Assembly (NCBI GenBank): GCA_965153355.1
Contig: OZ231126.1
Coordinates: 32,240,001-32,304,000, forward strand
Length of the DNA stretch: 64,000 nt
Source: Flaccisagitta enflata
Taxonomy: Eukaryota
Direction of reading: 5' to 3'
A program made the translations under genes and the position numbers. Positions 14,653 through 61,369 of the stretch are shown piece by piece (position 1 is the stretch's first letter; every line of letters begins with the position of its first letter). The notes under the pieces were generated by a model. The model searched no databases. It saw nothing but the letters and a program-made list of their open reading frames with translations, and was not told the DNA's origin.

Positions 14653-15056
14653 TCGTTTTGATCATGTTTTTAAAATTGCAGCTAAATTTTTGTTTCGGTT
14701 GTTGTTTAATTTTTGCTGTTGTTGTTCTTGATGGTAGCGGTGGTGTTGACGTTGCCTCAGTTGTTCTCATGGTCAGAAACTGGAAATTGCAATTCTAAAG
14801 CCAGGTTTGAGTAAAAAAAAAAGAAAGTTCCTTTTAAACTTTTATGGACTTTCTGTCAAGTGAAAGAAACCATTCTATTTAGGAAATGGTGATGAGGATG
14901 ACGGGAGTTAAGGAGTTAAAAGGGGTAACTAAAGGTTAATAGTTGGTGGGGATGACGAGGAATGATGGGAGGAAATGTAGTGTTCTGACGATGGATTTGT
15001 TCAAAGTTGATGAATGTGATGCGAGAGCCGTTGCGGGATGAGTAGATGGGATACCA

Positions 15057-15247
15057 TTTTTAGTCGCGTGTACGCGACTCTACAACCCGCTTTGTCTGTC
15101 GGTCGGTCGGTCGGTTGGCGATGTTTTAATTTTTTTTACAATTTTACTTTTTTGACCCCACTGCTCCTGCCCAAATGGTCTGGTGACCTCAAATATGGCC
15201 CCTGCCCACCCGCACGCGACTTCGGTAGCCGTGTATCCGGCCTTGTT
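15057..15247 (+). mobile_element. HINE-like family A
   Basis: TTTTTAGTCGCGTGTACGCGACTCTAC...CGCGACT...GCCGTGTATCCGGCCTTGTT. Confidence 0.75.
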
Positions 15248-15804
15248 TATTTTGGAATGGTGGTTCTCATTGGTTGTTTTTGATGGACGGAGGTAAATGC
15301 TGATAATGTGGCTGATGAAACTGTCGGAGGGCTCATGGTCTTGTTGAATCAACGCTGTTGATCGTCGTAGGGCCCACTGGGCTGGAATCATCACCCAGCA
15401 AGATTTTGTCTACCACCCAGCCACCGTCAAAAATTCCTCAACCTAACCATCTTATCCTGATCCATAGTGAGATTGAAAGCCTGGTGACAAAATGGATCTA
15501 AAAGAAAAGAAGCTCTTTTGGTCCATTCACCAAATTAAGTGCCAAGTTAGAAATTATTACATGATGAAAAAGATACTTGGCCAATGACGGCAAAGCAGGA
15601 GTCCAATTAGAAGAAAGCACTCCGTGCACTGAATTGATTATGACTTTGTATACAGACGGCGTGTAAACTTCTCGTGATGAAAAAGAAAATGAATAAGGTA
15701 GTGGGAGGTCAGAAAGGATTACAGGAAATGGTAAGTTCAAACGCGCAACCATGATCAATGCAGATGGCGCAGAATTCAGAGAGTACAAAAAGAACATGAT
15801 GAGG

Positions 15805-33453: not shown

Positions 33454-34173
33454 GCGTGGTTCCCCAGGAGAGTATGTTGTACATTCCTGAGTAGACGCTG
33501 AGTGTGTCGCCGCAGTGAAGATCCAACCACTCAAACCGCAATTTCAGCTTTTGAAGGCCTGAGAATTTGGAGCGAAATAGAAGAGTGGAGGAGAAAGGTA
33601 AAGATAGATGAGGAGAGGGAGAGGAAGAAGAGTTTTCGGTTTATGGATGTATATAACTCGAAATTATCGATGTGCACTTGTTTTTAGGTGCGTCATCGCA
33701 TTTCTATAAGAGGGTCTGTCCGTCCGTGTGTTTGTTCGTCCATCCGTCCGTCTGTATGTCCGTTGCGGCTGTGCTCAAATCACGCAGATAAGGCATTGAG
33801 TTGCCCGGATGGGCTTGTTCCATAACGGTATCCCTGCCCTTACTCTTCCCCCATCCTCATCCGTGACCCTCAGTTAGGGTCCTTCACCTCCCCTTTAGCT
33901 CCAGCCTCTACCCCTAATGTAAATCCCACGGTTCCCATCCGACACCTATCGAGCGAATATATTGTAATGCTGATTAAACAATGCCGTGCAAGTGGGCAGG
34001 GGCAGTGCTAAAAAAGGTTATTTAAGCGATTGGGCAGAAGCAGTAAGGCTAACGGTGACCGACGAACGGTTACCGACGAACCGATGAACCGACGAACAGT
34101 CGAACCGACGAACCGACGAACGACGAACGGTGACCGACGAACGGATGGACAGACAGACCGACCATATAGCGGG

Positions 34174-34240
34174 GCTGTTTGTGCGTCCAAGCCTTCCCGC
34201 GGCGACAGCGGGCGACGCTCTGCGTTGGCAAATCTGGACG
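34174..34240 (+). ncRNA. HDV-like self-cleaving ribozyme (predicted)
   Basis: P1 GCTGTT/GACAGC, P2 CGTCCA/TGGACG, P3 GCC/GGC, L3 TTCCCGC, GGG for P1.1, P4 CGACGC/GCGTTG, J4/2 GCAAA with candidate catalytic C34229; G+1 is the first base after the TSD. Confidence 0.8.
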
Positions 34241-34378
34241 AAGGGGCCCGGAAGACAAGGGGAGGAGGAAGAGCGAAAGTTCCGACACCAATCCGTCTTT
34301 TTTACGGGTCACGGAGTAGGGGGGAGGTTGCCGCACCCTTCTGCTCCAAAAAAACTATTCATCTGTAGGCAGTAGCCC

Positions 34379-37300
34379 ATGTTGGGCTCTCTCAAGTTGG
34401 GCGAACGCGCCCGGGCAACAGAGGTGGCTCTCAGACTAGTGACAATTCACCCCAACCCTGGTCCGAGAGGCCACGGCAGGACGGAGCGGGCTAAGCTAAG
34501 GAGAAGTATGAGAAGAAAGGAGAAAAGGAAGGAGAAAAGGCTAGCAAGGCAAGGCAGCAGCAAGGTTAAGGAGGAGTTGGTCGTTGTCGCCTGGAATGTG
34601 CAGCGCAAAAAACTGCTGGAGTGGTGTAGGACGACTGGATTCTCGCACGTCAACTGCTTTTATCGTCACAACAAAAGGGGAACTTGGTTCTCCAATTTCA
34701 ACCACCGATGGTACGAACTGGACGGCTTCCTTATGAGAAACCGCGAGCGACAGCATCACGTCAGGAAGATTTGTACTGTCGGCGAGGCGTCCCTCTCGGA
34801 CCACAAGCCGAAGAAGTTGCGACTGAGCTTAAAGAAGAGGAGGTGGGTAGAAGCTCAGGCTAGCAGGAAAGTCCCGCAAATTAAGTGGGAGTGTTTGAGG
34901 AACGAGGTGGTGGCTGAAACTTATCGCCAAAGGATGCAGGAGGTGATGGAAGAGGAGGAACAAAGGGTAGGGGAAGAGACATCAGGATGGGCAGAAGTGG
35001 CGGAGAAAGTGATGGTGGTGGCTAAGGAGGTTTGTGGTGTAAAAAGTAAGAGTGTGGAGAACCCGTGGATGATGGGGAAAGAAGAAGAGATAGAGAGAAG
35101 AAGAAGGGAGATAAGTGCCGCGGTGGAAAGGAAGAATGAAGCGGTGGAAGGAGGAGAAGAGGATGAAAGAGTGGAGGAAGCGAAAGAAGAAGTGAGGAGG
35201 CTTAGAGGGGAATGGAAGAGGACGGTAAAGAGATGGGAGAAGGAGTGGTGGGAGGGAGTGGCGGATGAATGTAGGAGGGCGGAGGAGGTTGGTGACATGG
35301 GCAGTCTCTATCGAGGGATAAGGAAGATAGGAATCAAGGATGAAAAGAAGGCGCCGGCGGAGACAAAAATAACAACAGAAGATTTTAAAGTTCACTTCAG
35401 TCAAGTATCAAAGGATCGTTTTGAGAATGACCCGGCGGAGATTGAGGAAGTTGTGGAAGCAGTGGAAGATCTGAGAGGGACAGAGAAGGCGAAGATTTGG
35501 GAAGAAAAATTGAACTCGGTGCCAGACAAGAAAGAAATATTGGAGCAAATGAGGAAGATGAGGGACTCGGCGCCGGGCGAGGACGGAGTCAGACTTTCTT
35601 ACATAATGAAAGGTGGTGAAAAGGTGCAGGAGAGGGTGGTAAAGATAGTTCAGTTTATGTTTTCCAACGAGGCGGAGAAGTGGGAGGATGCCCTCAAGTC
35701 GGGGGTAGTTGTGCCGCTGTATAAAATGAAGGGCGACCGCGACGACCCCAATAACTACAGGGGAGTGTGTCTTCTATCCATGGGGAGCAGGATACTAGCG
35801 CGAGTCATAGCAGCACGTCTGATGGCGTGGTCGGAAGACGTCGGTCTACTCGACGACAATCAGCAAGGCTTTCGGAAGGGTAGGTCGACCGGAGACGCCA
35901 CCCAGATGATGGTGAGACTGAAGGAGGACGCTGAGGATTTGGAAACAAGGAGGAGAGGGGAGGAGGTAGAGGACAAGGACAATCTTGTTGCGAGACTGTT
36001 GGATCTCAAGAAAGCCTATCCTAGGGTTAACAAGCCGGCCCTGTGGAAAATTCTTGAAAAATATGGTCTAAATGGTAACTTTCTGCACAGCCTCCAAGAC
36101 CTTCACGAGACTACCGAATATAAGATCCGCGGTAAGAACGGCTTCAGCGAGGAATGGGTGCCAGAAAGGGGCCTGCGAGAGGGATGTCCCTCCTCGCCAC
36201 CTCTCTTCAACATTTTTCACCAAGCAGTGATGCGACTAGCAAGGAGGAAGAGGATTGAAAGAGCGGAAGAAAGTGGAAAGACAGCAGGAATCATCGTCAA
36301 ATGGGTGCCAGGAAGTTCATTTCCGAGTGAAGCAACATGGGAGAAGCATAATTCAGAGGTGGTGGAGGTGAGGGTGGATAAGAGTCTCTTCGCGGACGAC
36401 TCCACCATAGTGGGTAACAAGGAGGAAATTGACGATGGAGTGAATACGACGAAGGAAATAATGAATAAATTCGAAGAAAGAAACAATGACAACAAAGAGG
36501 AGGAATTATTGTTTGGAAGCGAGGAAAGCGGTGGCATTAGAATGTTGGGCAGCTGGATGGGGTGGAAGGAGGATGTTGACGCACGTTTGAAGAGGGGAAA
36601 CAAGATATGGTGGTTAACAAGGAAACGTCTGAGAGGAGCAAGGATCTCGAGAAAGTTACAAGCAAGAATCGTGCAAACTTGCGTAGAATCGACGCTTTTA
36701 TTTGACTGTCATGTCAGAACGTGGAGGGTGTCTGAATTGAAGCGCCTTCAGAAGTTTGTGGACCGCGCGTATAGGCATGTTTGGAGCAGGAAGACGGGGC
36801 CGCCGTTGATGCAGATGCAACAAGAAGGTAAAAACATGGTGGATGTAAGGAAGGAGCTGGGGGTGATGCCGATCAGATGGAAGGTGGAGAAACGTGTGCT
36901 TGAAAGAATGGGACATGTGATGCGATTGGGTGATGATCGGATGGTGAAGGCGGTCACCCTGGGGTGGGTCGAGCAGCTGGAAAGGTGGAAGAAGACGAAA
37001 GGCAGCAAAAGAAAGACGGTGCTTTATTGGAAGAAGCTGGTAAGAGAGGCAGGATGGGACTATACGAAGATCGGGAAGCTGACAAGAGATAGGAAGAAAT
37101 GGAAGGAACTAGTCAGAGAAAGAATGGATCATCTGCGAAAGTGGGAATGGAGTCGTGGAAACAAATGGGAAGGAGAAAGACCGGAAAGGAGGGACGCCAC
37201 AAGAGAGGACAGAATGGCTTTTGTGTTTGTGTGTGATGAGTGCGGAAAAGTGTGCAAATCGAAAGCGGGATTAACAATTCACGTCAAAAGGATGCATGAA

Positions 37301-37627
37301 CAATCTGAGAAGAAGAAAAAATTTGGGTGCGACAACTGCGAAAAAGTTTTCTTGCAAGAAGCAAATCTTAAAAATCATGAGAAAATCTGCGGGGGCAAGG
37401 AAGACGACGGGAAGAGGGAATGCTCCGGATGCCATAAACGTCTGTCGAAATCTTACATCCATCAACACATGCGGGCCTGTCAGGCCGCGCAAGGGGGCGA
37501 TATGGAGGTGGTGGCCCAGCCCCGGGCAAGAGTGTATCGAGCGAAAAGGAAAAATTGCCCAGGATGTGGCGTCGAGATGGCGGCCACAAACGTAGCAAGA
37601 CACTTGAGAGAAGTGTGCCACCGCTAA
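34379..37627 (+). CDS. RTE-like polyprotein: 2A-like peptide, internally deleted AP endonuclease, reverse transcriptase, 4 C-terminal zinc fingers
   Basis: 1082-aa uninterrupted ORF; IHPNPGP, AWNVQ, YELDGFL, SDH, SAPGEDG, NYRGVCLL, QQGFRKGRST, LDLKKAY, GLREGCPSSPPLFN, FADD (36389-36400); CxxC..H..H/C motifs at 37225-37620. Confidence 0.9.
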   Translation: MLGSLKLGERARATEVALRLVTIHPNPGPRGHGRTERAKLRRSMRRKEKRKEKRLARQGSSKVKEELVVVAWNVQRKKLLEWCRTTGFSHVNCFYRHNKRGTWFSNFNHRWYELDGFLMRNRERQHHVRKICTVGEASLSDHKPKKLRLSLKKRRWVEAQASRKVPQIKWECLRNEVVAETYRQRMQEVMEEEEQRVGEETSGWAEVAEKVMVVAKEVCGVKSKSVENPWMMGKEEEIERRRREISAAVERKNEAVEGGEEDERVEEAKEEVRRLRGEWKRTVKRWEKEWWEGVADECRRAEEVGDMGSLYRGIRKIGIKDEKKAPAETKITTEDFKVHFSQVSKDRFENDPAEIEEVVEAVEDLRGTEKAKIWEEKLNSVPDKKEILEQMRKMRDSAPGEDGVRLSYIMKGGEKVQERVVKIVQFMFSNEAEKWEDALKSGVVVPLYKMKGDRDDPNNYRGVCLLSMGSRILARVIAARLMAWSEDVGLLDDNQQGFRKGRSTGDATQMMVRLKEDAEDLETRRRGEEVEDKDNLVARLLDLKKAYPRVNKPALWKILEKYGLNGNFLHSLQDLHETTEYKIRGKNGFSEEWVPERGLREGCPSSPPLFNIFHQAVMRLARRKRIERAEESGKTAGIIVKWVPGSSFPSEATWEKHNSEVVEVRVDKSLFADDSTIVGNKEEIDDGVNTTKEIMNKFEERNNDNKEEELLFGSEESGGIRMLGSWMGWKEDVDARLKRGNKIWWLTRKRLRGARISRKLQARIVQTCVESTLLFDCHVRTWRVSELKRLQKFVDRAYRHVWSRKTGPPLMQMQQEGKNMVDVRKELGVMPIRWKVEKRVLERMGHVMRLGDDRMVKAVTLGWVEQLERWKKTKGSKRKTVLYWKKLVREAGWDYTKIGKLTRDRKKWKELVRERMDHLRKWEWSRGNKWEGERPERRDATREDRMAFVFVCDECGKVCKSKAGLTIHVKRMHEQSEKKKKFGCDNCEKVFLQEANLKNHEKICGGKEDDGKRECSGCHKRLSKSYIHQHMRACQAAQGGDMEVVAQPRARVYRAKRKNCPGCGVEMAATNVARHLREVCHR

Positions 37628-38789
37628 CGCGTGGTGCATTTAAATACCCAACATGGAGGGGTATACTCCTAACGGGAGTCTAAACCCATTTTACGGATTT
37701 ACGGATTTACGGACCATATAGCGGGTCATAGAGTCGCGTAGCACGCGACTAAGAATGACAAGTCTCGCCTTTTCCACCTTGACTGAGTTATCTAGTGGTG
37801 AAGATTTCAAACGGCCTTTAGTTCAAGTCTACCATACGACTAAAAAAAAAGACGCATTTTTAGTATTCCAATCATAAATCAAAGAGAAACCTTAGATCAT
37901 CTGAAAGCCCTTCAAAAGTACTTTCATTTGGCGCCAATCTGGTATTGCTATCTTTTTATGTTTAGAAATGGCATAAGTTTGAGTGAAAACGTGATTCTCA
38001 TTGCAAGGCTCTAGCTTCTAAACCGTGTGAGATATAGAGCTGGGATTGGTCTAGATTGGTTAAGATTAAAATATTTTTCAAAAAGTTAGAATTAATCTTT
38101 ACACTTGTGTTTATTAATCTACAATAAAGGCGGCTCTCGCCGACCGGAAAAAAGTCGTAAATGGGAGTCACTTTTTTCATTGCATGTTTTTCTGTGTGCA
38201 TCTCTTCGATTGGATCGCAATTCTCCATGGTTCGGGTTTTCAAATTGACAGAAACCAATCCGCCACAATGATTTGTCACTCTTTGCACGAGAAAGGATTG
38301 TTTTGATTATGAGCATGAAGTCCGAATCATTAACGAGTACTGAGTAGTTCCCAGTTTAATGACTGGAGCCATTGGCAATGAATTCCATTAGGCTACTCTG
38401 AGCTAGGATTTCAGTTTCGTGGTTATTTTGGTCAATATGCAGCCACTTCTCCAGCACTCTTTGTTTATTTTTGTCATAAATGTCATAAATGGAGAACAGG
38501 AGTCTATTGCAAGTAACAAGAAGACGATATAGATGGAGTTACCATACCTACTTACGGAATATTGAAATGGCAAAGAAAAACTGATATGTTGGGATCAATG
38601 CAGCGAGCAGCTAAGAGCTTAAAATAAATCGGCTTGGTTGAGGAGTGGGTATGGGTTCGAAACCCTAACAGACGGAGGAATTCGAAGGGGTTGAGTGAAA
38701 CTGATAGGAAGAGGAAGTGGAGGAGGATGAGAAGGACAAGAAGAGGAACATTAAGAGATTAACTCAGCATGACATTCGGAAACAGGAAG

Positions 38790-60540: not shown

Positions 60541-60736
60541 TTTTTAGTCGCGTGCTACGCGGCTCTACAACCCGCTTTGTCGGTCCGTCGGTCCGTCTAT
60601 CCGTCCGTCTGTTGGTCCGTCACACTTTTTTTGGGTTTTTGCGGTCTTTGGCGTCACTGCTCCTGCCTAAATGATAGAGTGGCCGCAAACATGCCCACCC
60701 GCACGCGACTTGGGTAACCGTGTATCCGGCCTTGTT
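60541..60736 (+). mobile_element. HINE-like family A
   Basis: TTTTTAGTCGCGTGCTACGCGGCTCTAC...CGCGACT...CCGTGTATCCGGCCTTGTT. Confidence 0.75.
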
Positions 60737-61369
60737 ACTTCAAATGTTAATAGCAACTTGTTAACTTGTTTAGTTGTTATGACGGTTTCGCATTTATATT
60801 CATGACTTCACTTCCACCGAAACCACCTATGATCTACTTTTTTAAAAGATTTGGAATTAACAAGGCCACGCAGATTAAGAACTTGTGAATGAACGTTGCT
60901 CAATAATAAATGAATGAATGAATGAATGAATGAATGATTGAATGAATGAATGAATGAATGAATGAATAAATGAATGAATGAATGAATGAATGAATGAATG
61001 AATAAATGAATGAATAAATGAATGAGAGAAGATTGGCGCTGCTAATTTTTTGATGAAAAAATCCTTGAATTTTGTGACTCTTTTGCGTTATCGACCGACT
61101 GTCCGACCTACCGACCTACCGCACGCTTCTCAAATTGGCTTTTTATTGGAAATAGAATGATCTTTGACGAAAACTCCACCGTTGCGGTTGTATTTTGATT
61201 TTATTCCCATGGATTCTGCTTAAAAGTTCCTTCTTTGAGCAAAATTTAGGCCTGAGGGCTTTTTCAATGGGAATACATCTTAAAATGCTTCTGTGTATGT
61301 GAGGTTGTATGGCCTACAGAATTCTAACGTTTTACAGCAGAAGAAGTCTCATTGCAAAACCAACTTTGG

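What the first reader, a model, noticed from the sequence alone, without database searches (positions are those of the whole stretch)
34174..34240. Compact HDV-like ribozyme whose predicted cleavage site is the retrotransposon's first base
Seen: the first 67 nt after the left TSD fold into the nested double pseudoknot: P1 34174-79/34204-09, P2 34184-89/34235-40, P3 34191-93/34201-03, L3 TTCCCGC, GGG 34210-12, P4 34213-18/34222-27, J4/2 GCAAA (C34229). The TSD boundary, defined independently, falls exactly before G+1. Established: HDV-like ribozymes process the 5' ends of R2, L1Tc/ingi and some RTE elements. Inference: the element has no promoter of its own and is cut out of host read-through transcripts. 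The 6-bp P1 with a G-C first pair (rather than 7 bp with G-U) is a non-canonical variant.
Basis: partly seen in the sequence, partly recalled or inferred. Interest (0 to 1): 0.85.

Follow-up and report, generated by a model that had tools for sequence, protein, structure and literature searches.

The report
HDV-like ribozyme heading a LINE retrotransposon
The first 67 bases of this retrotransposon copy fold like a hepatitis-delta-type self-cutting RNA that would trim the element's transcript to its exact first base; relatives of the element keep the same fold, but the device is already known from other retrotransposons.

Summary
The target-site duplication ends at 34173, so G34174 is the element's first base.

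It is not a chance fold:
- A full structural descriptor hits the window once and hit 0 of 40 window shuffles.
- Rfam's two HDV models land on the same spot, but far below their thresholds.
- Related elements from metagenome contigs carry the same fold at the same place in 6 of 8 loci that reach the 5' end.
- Their P1, P2 and P4 sequences differ but still pair (102 of 105 pairs within a sequence, against a mean of 72 when strands are swapped between lineages).
- C-A-A-A in J4/2 and the L3 core are constant.
- A covariance model built without two of these lineages found both.

Self-cleavage was not tested. The few RNA reads found cross the site uncut in a related copy. The "no promoter of its own" inference is untested. 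A 6-bp P1 is normal for this class, and a G-C first pair is the majority state in this family.

Verdict: a new member of a known kind, in an element laid out like L1Tc (ribozyme, 2A-like motif, endonuclease, reverse transcriptase, C2H2 fingers). This particular copy has lost part of its endonuclease.

The parts
34161..34173 (+). Left target-site duplication ACCATATAGCGGG (14 bp if G34160 is counted)
   Evidence: family D1 ends at 34173. Paralogous uninterrupted sites are shown.
34174..34240 (+). HDV-like ribozyme motif, 67 nt. Predicted cleavage is 5' of G34174.
34174..34179 (+). P1 5' strand GCUGUU. It pairs with 34204-34209 GACAGC.
   Evidence: The pairs covary across lineages.
34184..34189 (+). 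P2 5' strand CGUCCA. It pairs with 34235-34240 UGGACG (the pseudoknot).
34191..34203 (+). P3 (GCC/GGC) enclosing L3 UUCCCGC (34194-34200)
   Evidence: L3 starts U[U/C]C and holds a G near its end in all lineages.
34204..34212 (+). P1 3' strand GACAGC followed by GGG. The first two G are the presumed P1.1 partners of the L3 C residues.
   Evidence: GG follows P1' in 6 of 6 sequences.
34213..34227 (+). P4 hairpin CGACGC-UCU-GCGUUG
   Evidence: In other genomic copies A34215G co-occurs with T34225C (A-U to G-C).
34228..34234 (+). J4/2 GCAAAUC. C34229 is the presumed catalytic cytosine (equivalent to C75).
   Evidence: C-A-A-A is invariant in 6 of 6 sequences.
34235..34240 (+). P2 3' strand UGGACG
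34313..34347 (+). Second 5'-UTR element: a 12-bp hairpin, followed by an A7 run. Its function is unknown.
   Evidence: A conserved block in the translated leaders of relatives corresponds to it.
34379..37627 (+). Single ORF from ATG 34379 (frame open from 34376, 1083 codons): endonuclease remnant, reverse transcriptase (aa 458-707 = 35747-36496), and C-terminal C2H2-type fingers (aa 951 onward = 37226 onward)
34442..34465 (+). 2A-like motif TIHPNPGP near the N-terminus
34577..34810 (+). Remnant of the AP-endonuclease domain. About 157 aa are missing in frame near codon 77/78.
37690..37713 (+). 3' tail (TTTACGGA)x3
37713..37725 (+). Right target-site duplication ACCATATAGCGGG

Best explanation
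Bases 34174-34240 encode an HDV-like (nested double-pseudoknot) self-cleaving ribozyme. It forms the extreme 5' end of a single-ORF, AP-endonuclease-type non-LTR retrotransposon (34174 to about 37712).

Proposed mechanism:
1. When the element is transcribed together with whatever lies upstream, the RNA folds into P1/P1.1/P2/P3/P4.
2. C34229 in J4/2 and a Mg2+ ion held by L3 catalyse attack of the 2'-OH of nucleotide -1 on the phosphate 5' of G34174.
3. The flank leaves with a 2',3'-cyclic phosphate, and the element RNA begins with a 5'-OH exactly at its first base.
4. That RNA is the template for target-primed reverse transcription, which is why full-length copies start at G+1 directly after the target-site duplication.

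Shown here: the fold, its position, its conservation with covariation in relatives, and coincident 5' boundaries of independent copies.

Inferred from the established chemistry of the HDV class: the cleavage chemistry, the co-transcriptional timing, and any role in translation.

This copy has lost about 157 aa of its endonuclease. It could move only with protein supplied in trans.
For: **Anatomy and boundary**
- All helices are at the stated coordinates, and the TSD ends at 34173.

**Rarity**
- The full descriptor hits the window once, 0 of 40 window shuffles and 0 of 300 element shuffles.

**Curated models**
- RF02682 and RF00094 are the only families reported for 34100-34320 at E <= 10. Both lie on 34171/34174-34241/34242.

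**Relatives**
- 18 metagenome loci encode relatives, and 8 reach the 5' region.
- 6 of these 8 (L001, L006, L007, L009, L012, L013) have the 5'-domain motif on the coding strand upstream of the ORF. There was no other hit in about 47 kb x 2 strands. The rate makes that about 0.24 expected by chance.
- The window's 5' UTR has no blastn similarity to them beyond short words.

**Covariation over 5 lineages**
- P1 is GCUGUU/GACAGC, GCUUGG/CCAAGC, GCUUUC/GAAAGC, GCUCGGU/GCCGAGC and GCUUGGC/GCCAAGU.
- 102 of 105 aligned pairs are standard within a sequence. None of the 119 strand swaps between lineages reaches that (maximum 93, mean 72).
- C-A-A-A in J4/2 and GG after P1' are present in 6 of 6 sequences.

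**3' domain (P4, C-N-A-A, P2')**
- It is present in 6 of 6 real sequences, against 40-70 of 2000 shuffled tails each.

**Covariance models**
- R1, built from the window alone, finds L007/L009 (15.8 bits, E 0.0084), L001 (15.7 bits) and L006 (11.3 bits) at the same start bases.
- R2, built from window, L007, L001 and L006, finds the held-out L012 (30.6 bits, E 2.1e-5) and L013 (26.1 bits, E 2.5e-4). The next hit is at E 0.81.
- R2 also finds a further relative, L019, at 21.7 bits, E 7e-4.

**Independent 5' ends**
- L007 and L009 are identical from G+1 onward and unrelated upstream.
- A contig of run X3 matches from 34174 with 36 unmatched bases before it.
- RNA reads of a related copy also lose similarity exactly before 34174.

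**Within-genome variation**
- A34215G and T34225C, which are partners in P4, occur at the same depth in runs X1 and X2. The related transcribed copy has an unrelated but paired P4 (AGCG/CGCU) and the same P2'.
Against: - No cleavage assay exists.
- Rfam scores are far below gathering: 16.9 against 44 bits, and 15.3 against 50. There was nothing at the gathering threshold. L012 gave no HDV-family hit at E <= 10. L001 gave only a weak drz-agam-1 hit (11.3 against 37 bits).
- Pseudoknot-free folding of the 67 nt is no better than shuffles (z = +0.33). It prefers a competing hairpin, CCCGC/GCGGG, that would disrupt P1 and P3.
- The cleavage-site pair is G-C, not the G.U of HDV.
- Nucleotide -1 is G. 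The abstract of PMC1874588 (search listing only) ranks G as the slowest -1 base for the genomic HDV ribozyme.
- P1.1 would be C-G plus U.G unless L3 shifts by one base.
- In RNA run X12 (about 6 in 100 of the run was read) only 9 reads were laid, all partial. No pile of starts lies at 34174, and 5 reads cross the predicted site uncut in a related copy.
- 2 of 8 testable loci lack the motif: L002, and L018, which is 5'-truncated.
- I chose the P2 and P4 registers in the relatives by eye, and I wrote the descriptors after seeing the sequences.
Confidence: 0.8

Rival explanations
1. Dual element as in L1Tc Pr77. The same first ~70 bp act at the DNA level as an internal promoter and at the RNA level as a ribozyme. 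The element would then not depend on host read-through. This adds to the best explanation rather than replacing it.
For: [quoted passage not shown] The element here has the same overall layout as L1Tc: 5' ribozyme, 2A-like motif, AP endonuclease, RT and C-terminal C2H2 fingers. G-C-U at +1 to +3 is invariant in all lineages, which is more than pairing alone requires.
Against: Nothing here tests promoter activity. The rest of the ribozyme sequence is poorly conserved between lineages. That fits an RNA-structure constraint better than a DNA-motif constraint. RNA reads of a related copy start upstream of +1.
Confidence: 0.15
2. The HDV-like fold is conserved but serves mainly as a structural 5' module: a platform for translation initiation or a binding site for the element's protein. 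Cleavage in this family, or at least in this copy, would be weak or absent.
For: HDV-like ribozymes of R2 and L1Tc are proposed to act like an internal ribosome entry site, and the R2 protein binds its 5' pseudoknot (PMC6765202, passages read). In L001, L007 and L013 the reading frame is open through the ribozyme into the ORF, with ATG codons inside the ribozyme. Five RNA reads cross the site uncut. This copy has G at -1 and a G-C first pair.
Against: The catalytic C with A-A-A, the L3 U...G and the GG of P1.1 are kept in all lineages. That is not needed for a mere scaffold. Independent copies begin exactly at +1, which is what cleavage predicts.
Confidence: 0.08
3. Chance resemblance: a GC-rich 5' UTR that happens to satisfy an HDV-like descriptor.
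For: Rfam scores are below threshold. The MFE z-score is +0.33. Loose descriptors do hit shuffled sequence (0.325 per window).
Against: The full descriptor hit 0 of 40 shuffles. The single hit lies on the one base defined by the TSD. The fold recurs with covariation in 5-6 diverged lineages. A model found held-out lineages at E of 2.5e-4 or better.
Confidence: 0.02

Closest known systems
L1TcRz / Pr77 of the L1Tc (ingi-clade) retrotransposon of Trypanosoma cruzi
   Same: An HDV-like ribozyme occupies the first ~70-77 nt, and cleavage falls at the element's first nucleotide. The element has a single ORF with an N-terminal 2A motif, AP endonuclease, RT and C-terminal C2H2 zinc fingers, and it is flanked by a TSD (PMC3185411 and PMC5814959, passages read; here).
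   Different: L1TcRz starts with C+1 and has a one-pair P1.1. L1Tc carries an RNase H domain and a poly(A) tail. Here +1 is G, Pfam finds no RNase H, and the tail is (TTTACGGA)n. Promoter activity is not known here. No RT phylogeny or Pr77 sequence comparison was possible, so clade membership is open.
R2-element 5' HDV-like ribozymes (also R4, Dong, baggins, RTE)
   Same: The ribozyme releases the element RNA from a co-transcript. P1 is 6-7 bp, P2 is at least 5 bp, P4 is variable, and the L3/P3/P1.1 core is conserved with compensatory changes in P1 (PMC3774820 and PMC6765202, passages read). The same pattern is seen here.
   Different: R2 inserts only into 28S rDNA, uses a restriction-like endonuclease, and often cleaves upstream in the 28S sequence with long J1/2 inserts. 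This element is an AP-endonuclease type dispersed in repeats and microsatellites. Its ribozyme is compact (67-83 nt) with a constant 11-nt stretch between P1 and P3 in the five metagenome-and-window lineages (9 nt in L019).
Hepatitis delta virus genomic and antigenomic ribozymes (Rfam RF00094) and the F. prausnitzii HDV-like ribozyme (RF02682)
   Same: The topology and core are the same: GCC-U(U/C)CC.GC-GGC, GGG after P1, and GGC-A/G-AA-U before P2'. Both models align to 34171/34174-34241/34242.
   Different: Scores are 15-17 bits against gathering scores of 44-50. The first pair is G-C, not G.U. P4 is short. The setting is a retrotransposon, not a circular RNA replicon.

Membership tests
HDV-like self-cleaving ribozyme class (structure-defined) | Nested double pseudoknot: P1 starting at the cleavage site, P2 pairing the P1-P3 linker with the 3' end, a 3-bp P3 closing L3, and P4 between P1' and J4/2 | tested here: met
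   for the window. The same architecture is found in L001, L006, L007/L009 and L012/L013.
HDV-like self-cleaving ribozyme class (structure-defined) | Helix dimensions in the published range (P1 6-7 bp, P2 at least 5 bp, P3 3 bp) | tested here: met
   P1 is 6 bp, P2 6 bp and P3 3 bp. The ranges come from PMC4908430 and PMC3774820 (passages read).
HDV-like self-cleaving ribozyme class (structure-defined) | Catalytic cytosine in J4/2 followed by adenines | tested here: met
   C34229-A-A-A. C-A-A-A occurs in 6 of 6 sequences. That this C corresponds to C75 is my reading from recalled HDV numbering.
HDV-like self-cleaving ribozyme class (structure-defined) | L3 with a 5' U and a 3' G (reverse wobble), and C residues pairing with GG after P1' (P1.1) | tested here: inconclusive
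   L3 is UUCCCGC and is followed, after P1', by GGG. In the HDV register P1.1 would be C-G plus U.G; two C-G pairs need a one-base shift. Active relatives tolerate weak P1.1 helices (PMC13635239, passages read).
HDV-like self-cleaving ribozyme class (structure-defined) | G.U wobble as the first pair of P1 | tested here: not met
   G34174-C34209. G.U occurs only in L012/L013. The feature is not universal in the class: L1TcRz has C+1 (PMC3185411) and the C. briggsae ribozyme has C1 (PMC13635239).
HDV-like self-cleaving ribozyme class (structure-defined) | Helices supported by compensatory changes in relatives | tested here: met
   102 of 105 pairs are standard, against a maximum of 93 over the 119 strand swaps. 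A34215G co-occurs with T34225C. The P2 and P4 registers were assigned by eye; the control is.
HDV-like self-cleaving ribozyme class (structure-defined) | Mg2+-dependent self-scission giving a 5'-OH and a 2',3'-cyclic phosphate | not testable with these tools
   This needs in vitro transcription and cleavage assays.
Rfam HDV_ribozyme (RF00094) / HDV-F-prausnitzii (RF02682) | Score at or above the curated gathering threshold | tested here: not met
   15.3 bits against 50, and 16.9 bits against 44. There were no matches at gathering.
5'-terminal processing ribozymes of non-LTR retrotransposons | [quoted passage not shown] | tested here: met
   The TSD ends at 34173. The L007/L009 boundary is, and the X3 contig boundary.
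5'-terminal processing ribozymes of non-LTR retrotransposons | Element RNA is made as a co-transcript with upstream sequence and is cut in vivo | tested here: inconclusive
   5 RNA reads join unrelated upstream sequence to a related ribozyme, so read-through is seen. No reads start at +1. Only 9 reads were laid, from about 6 in 100 of the run.
L1Tc/ingi clade of non-LTR retrotransposons | Domain layout: single ORF with 2A, AP endonuclease, RT, RNase H and C2H2 fingers | tested here: inconclusive
   A 2A-like motif, RT and C2H2 fingers are found. The endonuclease is present in relatives and deleted here. Pfam detects no RNase H.
L1Tc/ingi clade of non-LTR retrotransposons | RT phylogeny with reference elements; the Pr77 sequence hallmark | not tested
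   No named reference sequences could be reached with these tools. Cluster look-up and Atlas gave no clade names.

The most novel reading that the evidence does not exclude
The ribozyme is half of a two-level self-trimming module. In several lineages the reading frame is open from inside or upstream of the ribozyme, through a leader of about 90 codons, to a 2A StopGo motif. The RNA would be cut free of host sequence by the ribozyme, and the protein would be freed of whatever was translated before it by 2A. A promoter-less element could then be expressed from any host transcript. Together with the shared C2H2 C-terminus, this would make the ribozyme-plus-2A arrangement of trypanosome L1Tc an old trait of a wider lineage living in marine eukaryotes, rather than a trypanosomatid speciality.
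Probability: 0.3. Interest if true: 0.65.

Novelty: new member of a known kind. Interest (0 to 1): 0.45.

Why it matters
HDV-like ribozymes at the 5' ends of LINE-type elements have been known since about 2010, so the mechanism is not new.

What this case adds:
- A compact ribozyme family (67-83 nt) with good covariation, found in diverged lineages of single-ORF, AP-endonuclease-type elements seen in marine metagenome assemblies.
- A layout that parallels L1Tc, with a ribozyme at the 5' end and a 2A motif behind it.

The two papers I could read on 2A in animal non-LTR elements do not mention ribozymes (0 occurrences in PMC3708506 and PMC3894237). The only paper in the library holding "ribozyme", "2A-like" and "non-LTR" together is the L1Tc review.

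If the coupling is real, it would explain how such elements are expressed without a cap-dependent start and without an ORF1. It would also give small natural ribozymes with G-C cleavage-site pairs for mechanistic comparison.

For annotation, the motif marks full-length 5' ends to the base.

Tried and rejected
- **Own genome.** None is held for this window. Genomic copies could be seen only through laid contigs.
- **Copies in the window.** There is no second copy of the element.
- **First, stricter descriptor.** It found the window site but none of the loci, because it required a contiguous P2 next to P3. I loosened it after reading the loci by eye, so it is post hoc.
- **MAFFT on the ribozymes.** It mis-aligned them. 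For that reason I did not use fold_alignment or the count of structure pairs, and I counted pairs by script from explicit coordinates instead.
- **Model R1.** With default filters it found only L006. With filters off it missed L012 and L013 at E <= 10.
- **R2 alignments.** They place the 3' domains of L001 and L006, and P2' of L007, in the wrong register. They were not used for pair counts.
- **RNA evidence.** No RNA holder is listed for the stretch. The one RNA run laid gave 9 partial reads.
- **Other collections.** Viral contigs hold no relative. Genome contigs hold one (L019).
- **Naming the clade or host.** Cluster look-up, the ESM Atlas and a "Vingi" paper search gave no clade names. Pfam on ten neighbouring ORFs gave nothing useful.
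- **Earlier findings of this scan.** Nothing was found.
- **Papers not held.** Ruminski et al. 2011 and Webb et al. 2009 are not in the library. What I say of them comes from the review PMC6765202. Their supplements, and those of the other papers, were not seen and may already list ribozymes of this family.

Full report
**1. What is in the sequence**

The + strand from 34174 reads GCUGUU-UGUG-CGUCCA-A-GCC-UUCCCGC-GGC-GACAGC-GGG-CGACGC-UCU-GCGUUG-GCAAAUC-UGGACG.
- P1 is 34174-79 with 34204-09 (five Watson-Crick pairs and a closing U.G).
- P2 is 34184-89 with 34235-40 (six Watson-Crick pairs).
- P3 is 34191-93 with 34201-03.
- L3 is UUCCCGC, and GGG lies at 34210-12.
- P4 is 34213-18 with 34222-27 (one G.U).
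- J4/2 contains C34229 followed by AAA.

The element it heads runs to about 37712. It holds one ORF (34379-37627) with a reverse-transcriptase domain and C-terminal C2H2-type fingers, and it ends in (TTTACGGA)x3.

The flanking direct repeat ACCATATAGCGGG lies at 34161-34173 and 37713-37725 and ends exactly there. The element sits inside a small repeat. Two other copies of that repeat in the window read straight across the site. G34174 is therefore the first base of the insertion, on evidence that does not depend on the fold.

**2. Is it more than chance?**

- Rfam at its curated thresholds reports nothing in the window.
- With permissive thresholds on 34100-34320, the only two families returned are HDV-F-prausnitzii (16.9 bits, E 0.49, 34174-34241) and HDV_ribozyme (15.3 bits, E 5.2, 34171-34242). 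They are on the right spot but far below their gathering scores of 44 and 50.
- A descriptor of my own for the whole motif hits the window once on both strands. It hit none of 40 dinucleotide shuffles of the window and none of 300 shuffles of the element. A looser 5'-domain descriptor hits once, against 0.325 per shuffled window. Both were written after I had seen the sequence, so they measure rarity and are not a blind prediction.
- Pseudoknot-free folding gives no support (z = +0.33). It shows a competing hairpin, CCCGC/GCGGG.

**3. Relatives**

No genome is held for the window, and the window has only this copy.

The protein has 224 relatives with E <= 0.001 among 7999 candidates scored. 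The listed full-length ones run to about 1250-1350 aa, and many also carry an Exo_endo_phos (endonuclease) domain. The window's protein lacks about 157 aa of that domain, in frame, so this copy is defective.

A scan of metagenome contigs returned 18 loci. Eight of them reach the 5' region:
- Six (L001, L006, L007, L009, L012, L013) carry the 5'-domain motif on the coding strand just upstream of the ORF. There was no other hit anywhere in the loci.
- L018 is 5'-truncated inside the leader.
- L002 has an unrelated AT-rich leader and no motif.

The window's 5' UTR shares no blastn similarity with these loci beyond short words. What is conserved is therefore structure rather than sequence.

**4. 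Covariation**

The five distinct lineages are the window, L001, L006, L007 (identical to L009 in the ribozyme) and L012 (close to L013).
- P1 reads GCUGUU/GACAGC, GCUUGG/CCAAGC, GCUUUC/GAAAGC, GCUCGGU/GCCGAGC and GCUUGGC/GCCAAGU.
- P2 reads CGUCCA/UGGACG, UGGUC/GACCA, CUGGUUCG/UGGACCAG, GACUUC/GAAGUC and GGUCUUCC/GGAAGACC.
- The P4 stems are all different and all paired.
- The linker between P1 and P3 is always 11 nt in these five lineages (9 nt in L019).
- L3 always starts U(U/C)C and holds a G near its end.
- GG always follows P1', and J4/2 is always C-A-A-A.

Of 105 aligned pairs, 102 are standard pairs within a sequence. The three exceptions are all in P2. When the 3' strands are swapped between lineages, none of the 119 permutations reaches that number (maximum 93, mean 72).

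I assigned the P2 and P4 registers by eye, so I added a control. With each 5' domain fixed, only 40-70 of 2000 shuffled tails offer a P4, a C-N-A-A and a P2'. All six real tails do.

**5. Covariance models**

- A model built from the window sequence alone (R1) finds L007 and L009 (15.8 bits, E 0.0084), L001 (15.7 bits) and L006 (11.3 bits) at exactly the predicted first bases. It misses L012 and L013.
- A model built from those four (R2) finds the held-out L012 (30.6 bits, E 2.1e-5) and L013 (26.1 bits, E 2.5e-4). The next hit is at E 0.81.
- R2 also finds one more relative, L019. This is an internally deleted element on a contig filed as a bacterial MAG (21.7 bits, E 7e-4, P1 GCUUCC/GGAAGC).

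**6. Other copies of the same genome and 5' ends**

Contigs of two DNA runs of the coded organism and of one marine metagenome run were laid on 33900-34900.
- The substitutions A34215G and T34225C, which are partners in P4, occur at equal depth in X1 (596.2, three contigs each) and in X2 (7.1). This is an A-U to G-C exchange. In X3 one more contig shows the first change than the second, which would still pair as G.U.
- One X3 contig matches from 34174 onward with 36 unmatched bases before it.
- L007 and L009 are identical from G+1 for 125 nt and unrelated upstream.

Independent insertions therefore begin at the predicted cleavage site.

**7. RNA**

The only RNA run available (about 6 in 100 of it was read) gave nine reads, all partial and none from this locus.
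- They come from a related copy with an 8-nt L3, a different but paired P4 (AGCG/CGCU), GG-C-A-A-G-A, and the same P2'.
- Five of them continue upstream of 34174 into unrelated sequence.
- This shows read-through transcription into a related ribozyme, and RNA that is uncut at the site.
- There is no pile of 5' ends at 34174.

With so few reads this neither supports nor excludes cleavage. I list it as evidence against efficient cleavage.

**8. How it most likely works**

From the established chemistry of the HDV class, the RNA folds during transcription. The J4/2 cytosine (here C34229) and a Mg2+ ion held near L3 promote attack of the 2'-OH of nucleotide -1. The upstream RNA leaves, and the element RNA starts with a 5'-OH at G34174.

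That gives the template a defined 5' end, which explains why full-length copies start at +1.

This part is inferred. Points that could slow this copy are G at -1 (ranked slowest for the genomic HDV ribozyme in the abstract of PMC1874588, seen only in the search listing), the G-C first pair, and a P1.1 of C-G plus U.G.

**9. Comparison with what is known**

- HDV-like ribozymes are described at the 5' ends of R2, L1Tc, baggins and RTE elements (PMC6765202) and of R4 and Dong (PMC3774820).
- A 6- or 7-bp P1 is called typical (PMC4908430, PMC3774820), so the 6-bp P1 is not unusual.
- Active members start with C (PMC3185411, PMC13635239) and tolerate weak P1.1 helices (PMC13635239).
- The closest whole-element parallel is L1Tc. 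It has a ribozyme in the first 77 nt, a 2A motif, AP endonuclease, RT, RNase H and C2H2 fingers (PMC5814959).
- Here Pfam sees no RNase H, and the tail is an octamer repeat rather than poly(A).
- I could not run an RT phylogeny, so clade membership is open.
- In L1Tc the same 77 nt are also a promoter.

For all of these papers I read passages found by term search, not whole texts, and no supplements.

**10. Verdict**

This is a real and well-supported HDV-like ribozyme motif at the exact 5' end of a defective copy of a LINE-type element. It is a new member of a known kind. Biochemical cleavage remains to be shown. The most interesting open lead is its coupling to a translated leader and a 2A motif (see the items noticed in passing).

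Noticed in passing
window 34442-34465; L001, L002, L006, L007, L009, L012, L013, L018 N-termini: A 2A-like StopGo motif sits near the ORF's N-terminus. The window, L006 and L018 have (I/V)HPNPGP, where the key glutamate is replaced. L001, L002, L007/L009 and L012/L013 have canonical (I/V)ExNPGP. 110 of 130 long homologues hold NPGP in their first 400 residues.
   Followed up: partly
L001:117-460, L007:396-720, L013:7-380: The reading frame is open from upstream of or inside the ribozyme through a leader of about 90 codons to the 2A motif. The first in-frame ATG lies in J1/2 (+9) in L007 and L013, and in the P4 3' arm in L001. Database proteins such as P0024 begin with a translated ribozyme. 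By plain arithmetic a random frame stays open for 95 codons about 1 time in 100. The window copy has a stop at 34373-75 and starts at ATG 34379.
   Followed up: partly
window 34313-34347 (+): A 12-bp hairpin (34313-24 with 34336-47) followed by A7 lies in the 5' UTR downstream of the ribozyme. The 138-nt UTR folds with z = -1.61. A conserved block in the translated leaders of relatives (VFFWQQRG...LSLK) appears to correspond to it.
   Followed up: partly
window 34577-34810: The element's AP-endonuclease domain has an in-frame internal deletion of about 157 aa relative to P0002 (its residues 113-268). The ribozyme, RT and zinc fingers look intact, so this may be a non-autonomous derivative.
   Followed up: yes
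window 33960-34173 and 37726-37770; also 60541-60760 (-) and 15055-15250 (-): The insertion site is a short, highly repeated MITE/SINE-like element with inverted ends (AGTCGCGTGC ... GCACGCGACT) and an internal ACCGACGA microsatellite (34072-34147). Summed contig depth there is roughly 25 to 1000 times that of bins outside it, by run and bin, in the DNA runs.
   Followed up: partly
window 34141-34160 against 37693-37712; L001, L012, L013, L018 upstream flanks; L003, L008 3' ends: The flank just upstream of the TSD resembles the element's own (TTTACGGA)n tail. Relatives whose tails are (GAA)n(GAT)n have (GATGAT)n-like sequence right upstream of their ribozymes. This suggests insertion into microsatellites that match the tail.
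   Followed up: partly
L019:9783-9863: A related, internally deleted element with the ribozyme joined almost directly to the C-terminal half of the endonuclease. It lies on a 353-kb, 36% GC contig filed under a bacterial MAG, which is probably eukaryotic DNA binned by mistake.
   Followed up: partly
L006:59-109: A weak partial second match to the ribozyme model lies about 60 nt upstream of the real ribozyme (6.7 bits for 59-109; 11.4 bits for 74-109). It has GGG, a short stem and CAAAUCUGGA. It may be a remnant of another copy or chance.
   Followed up: no
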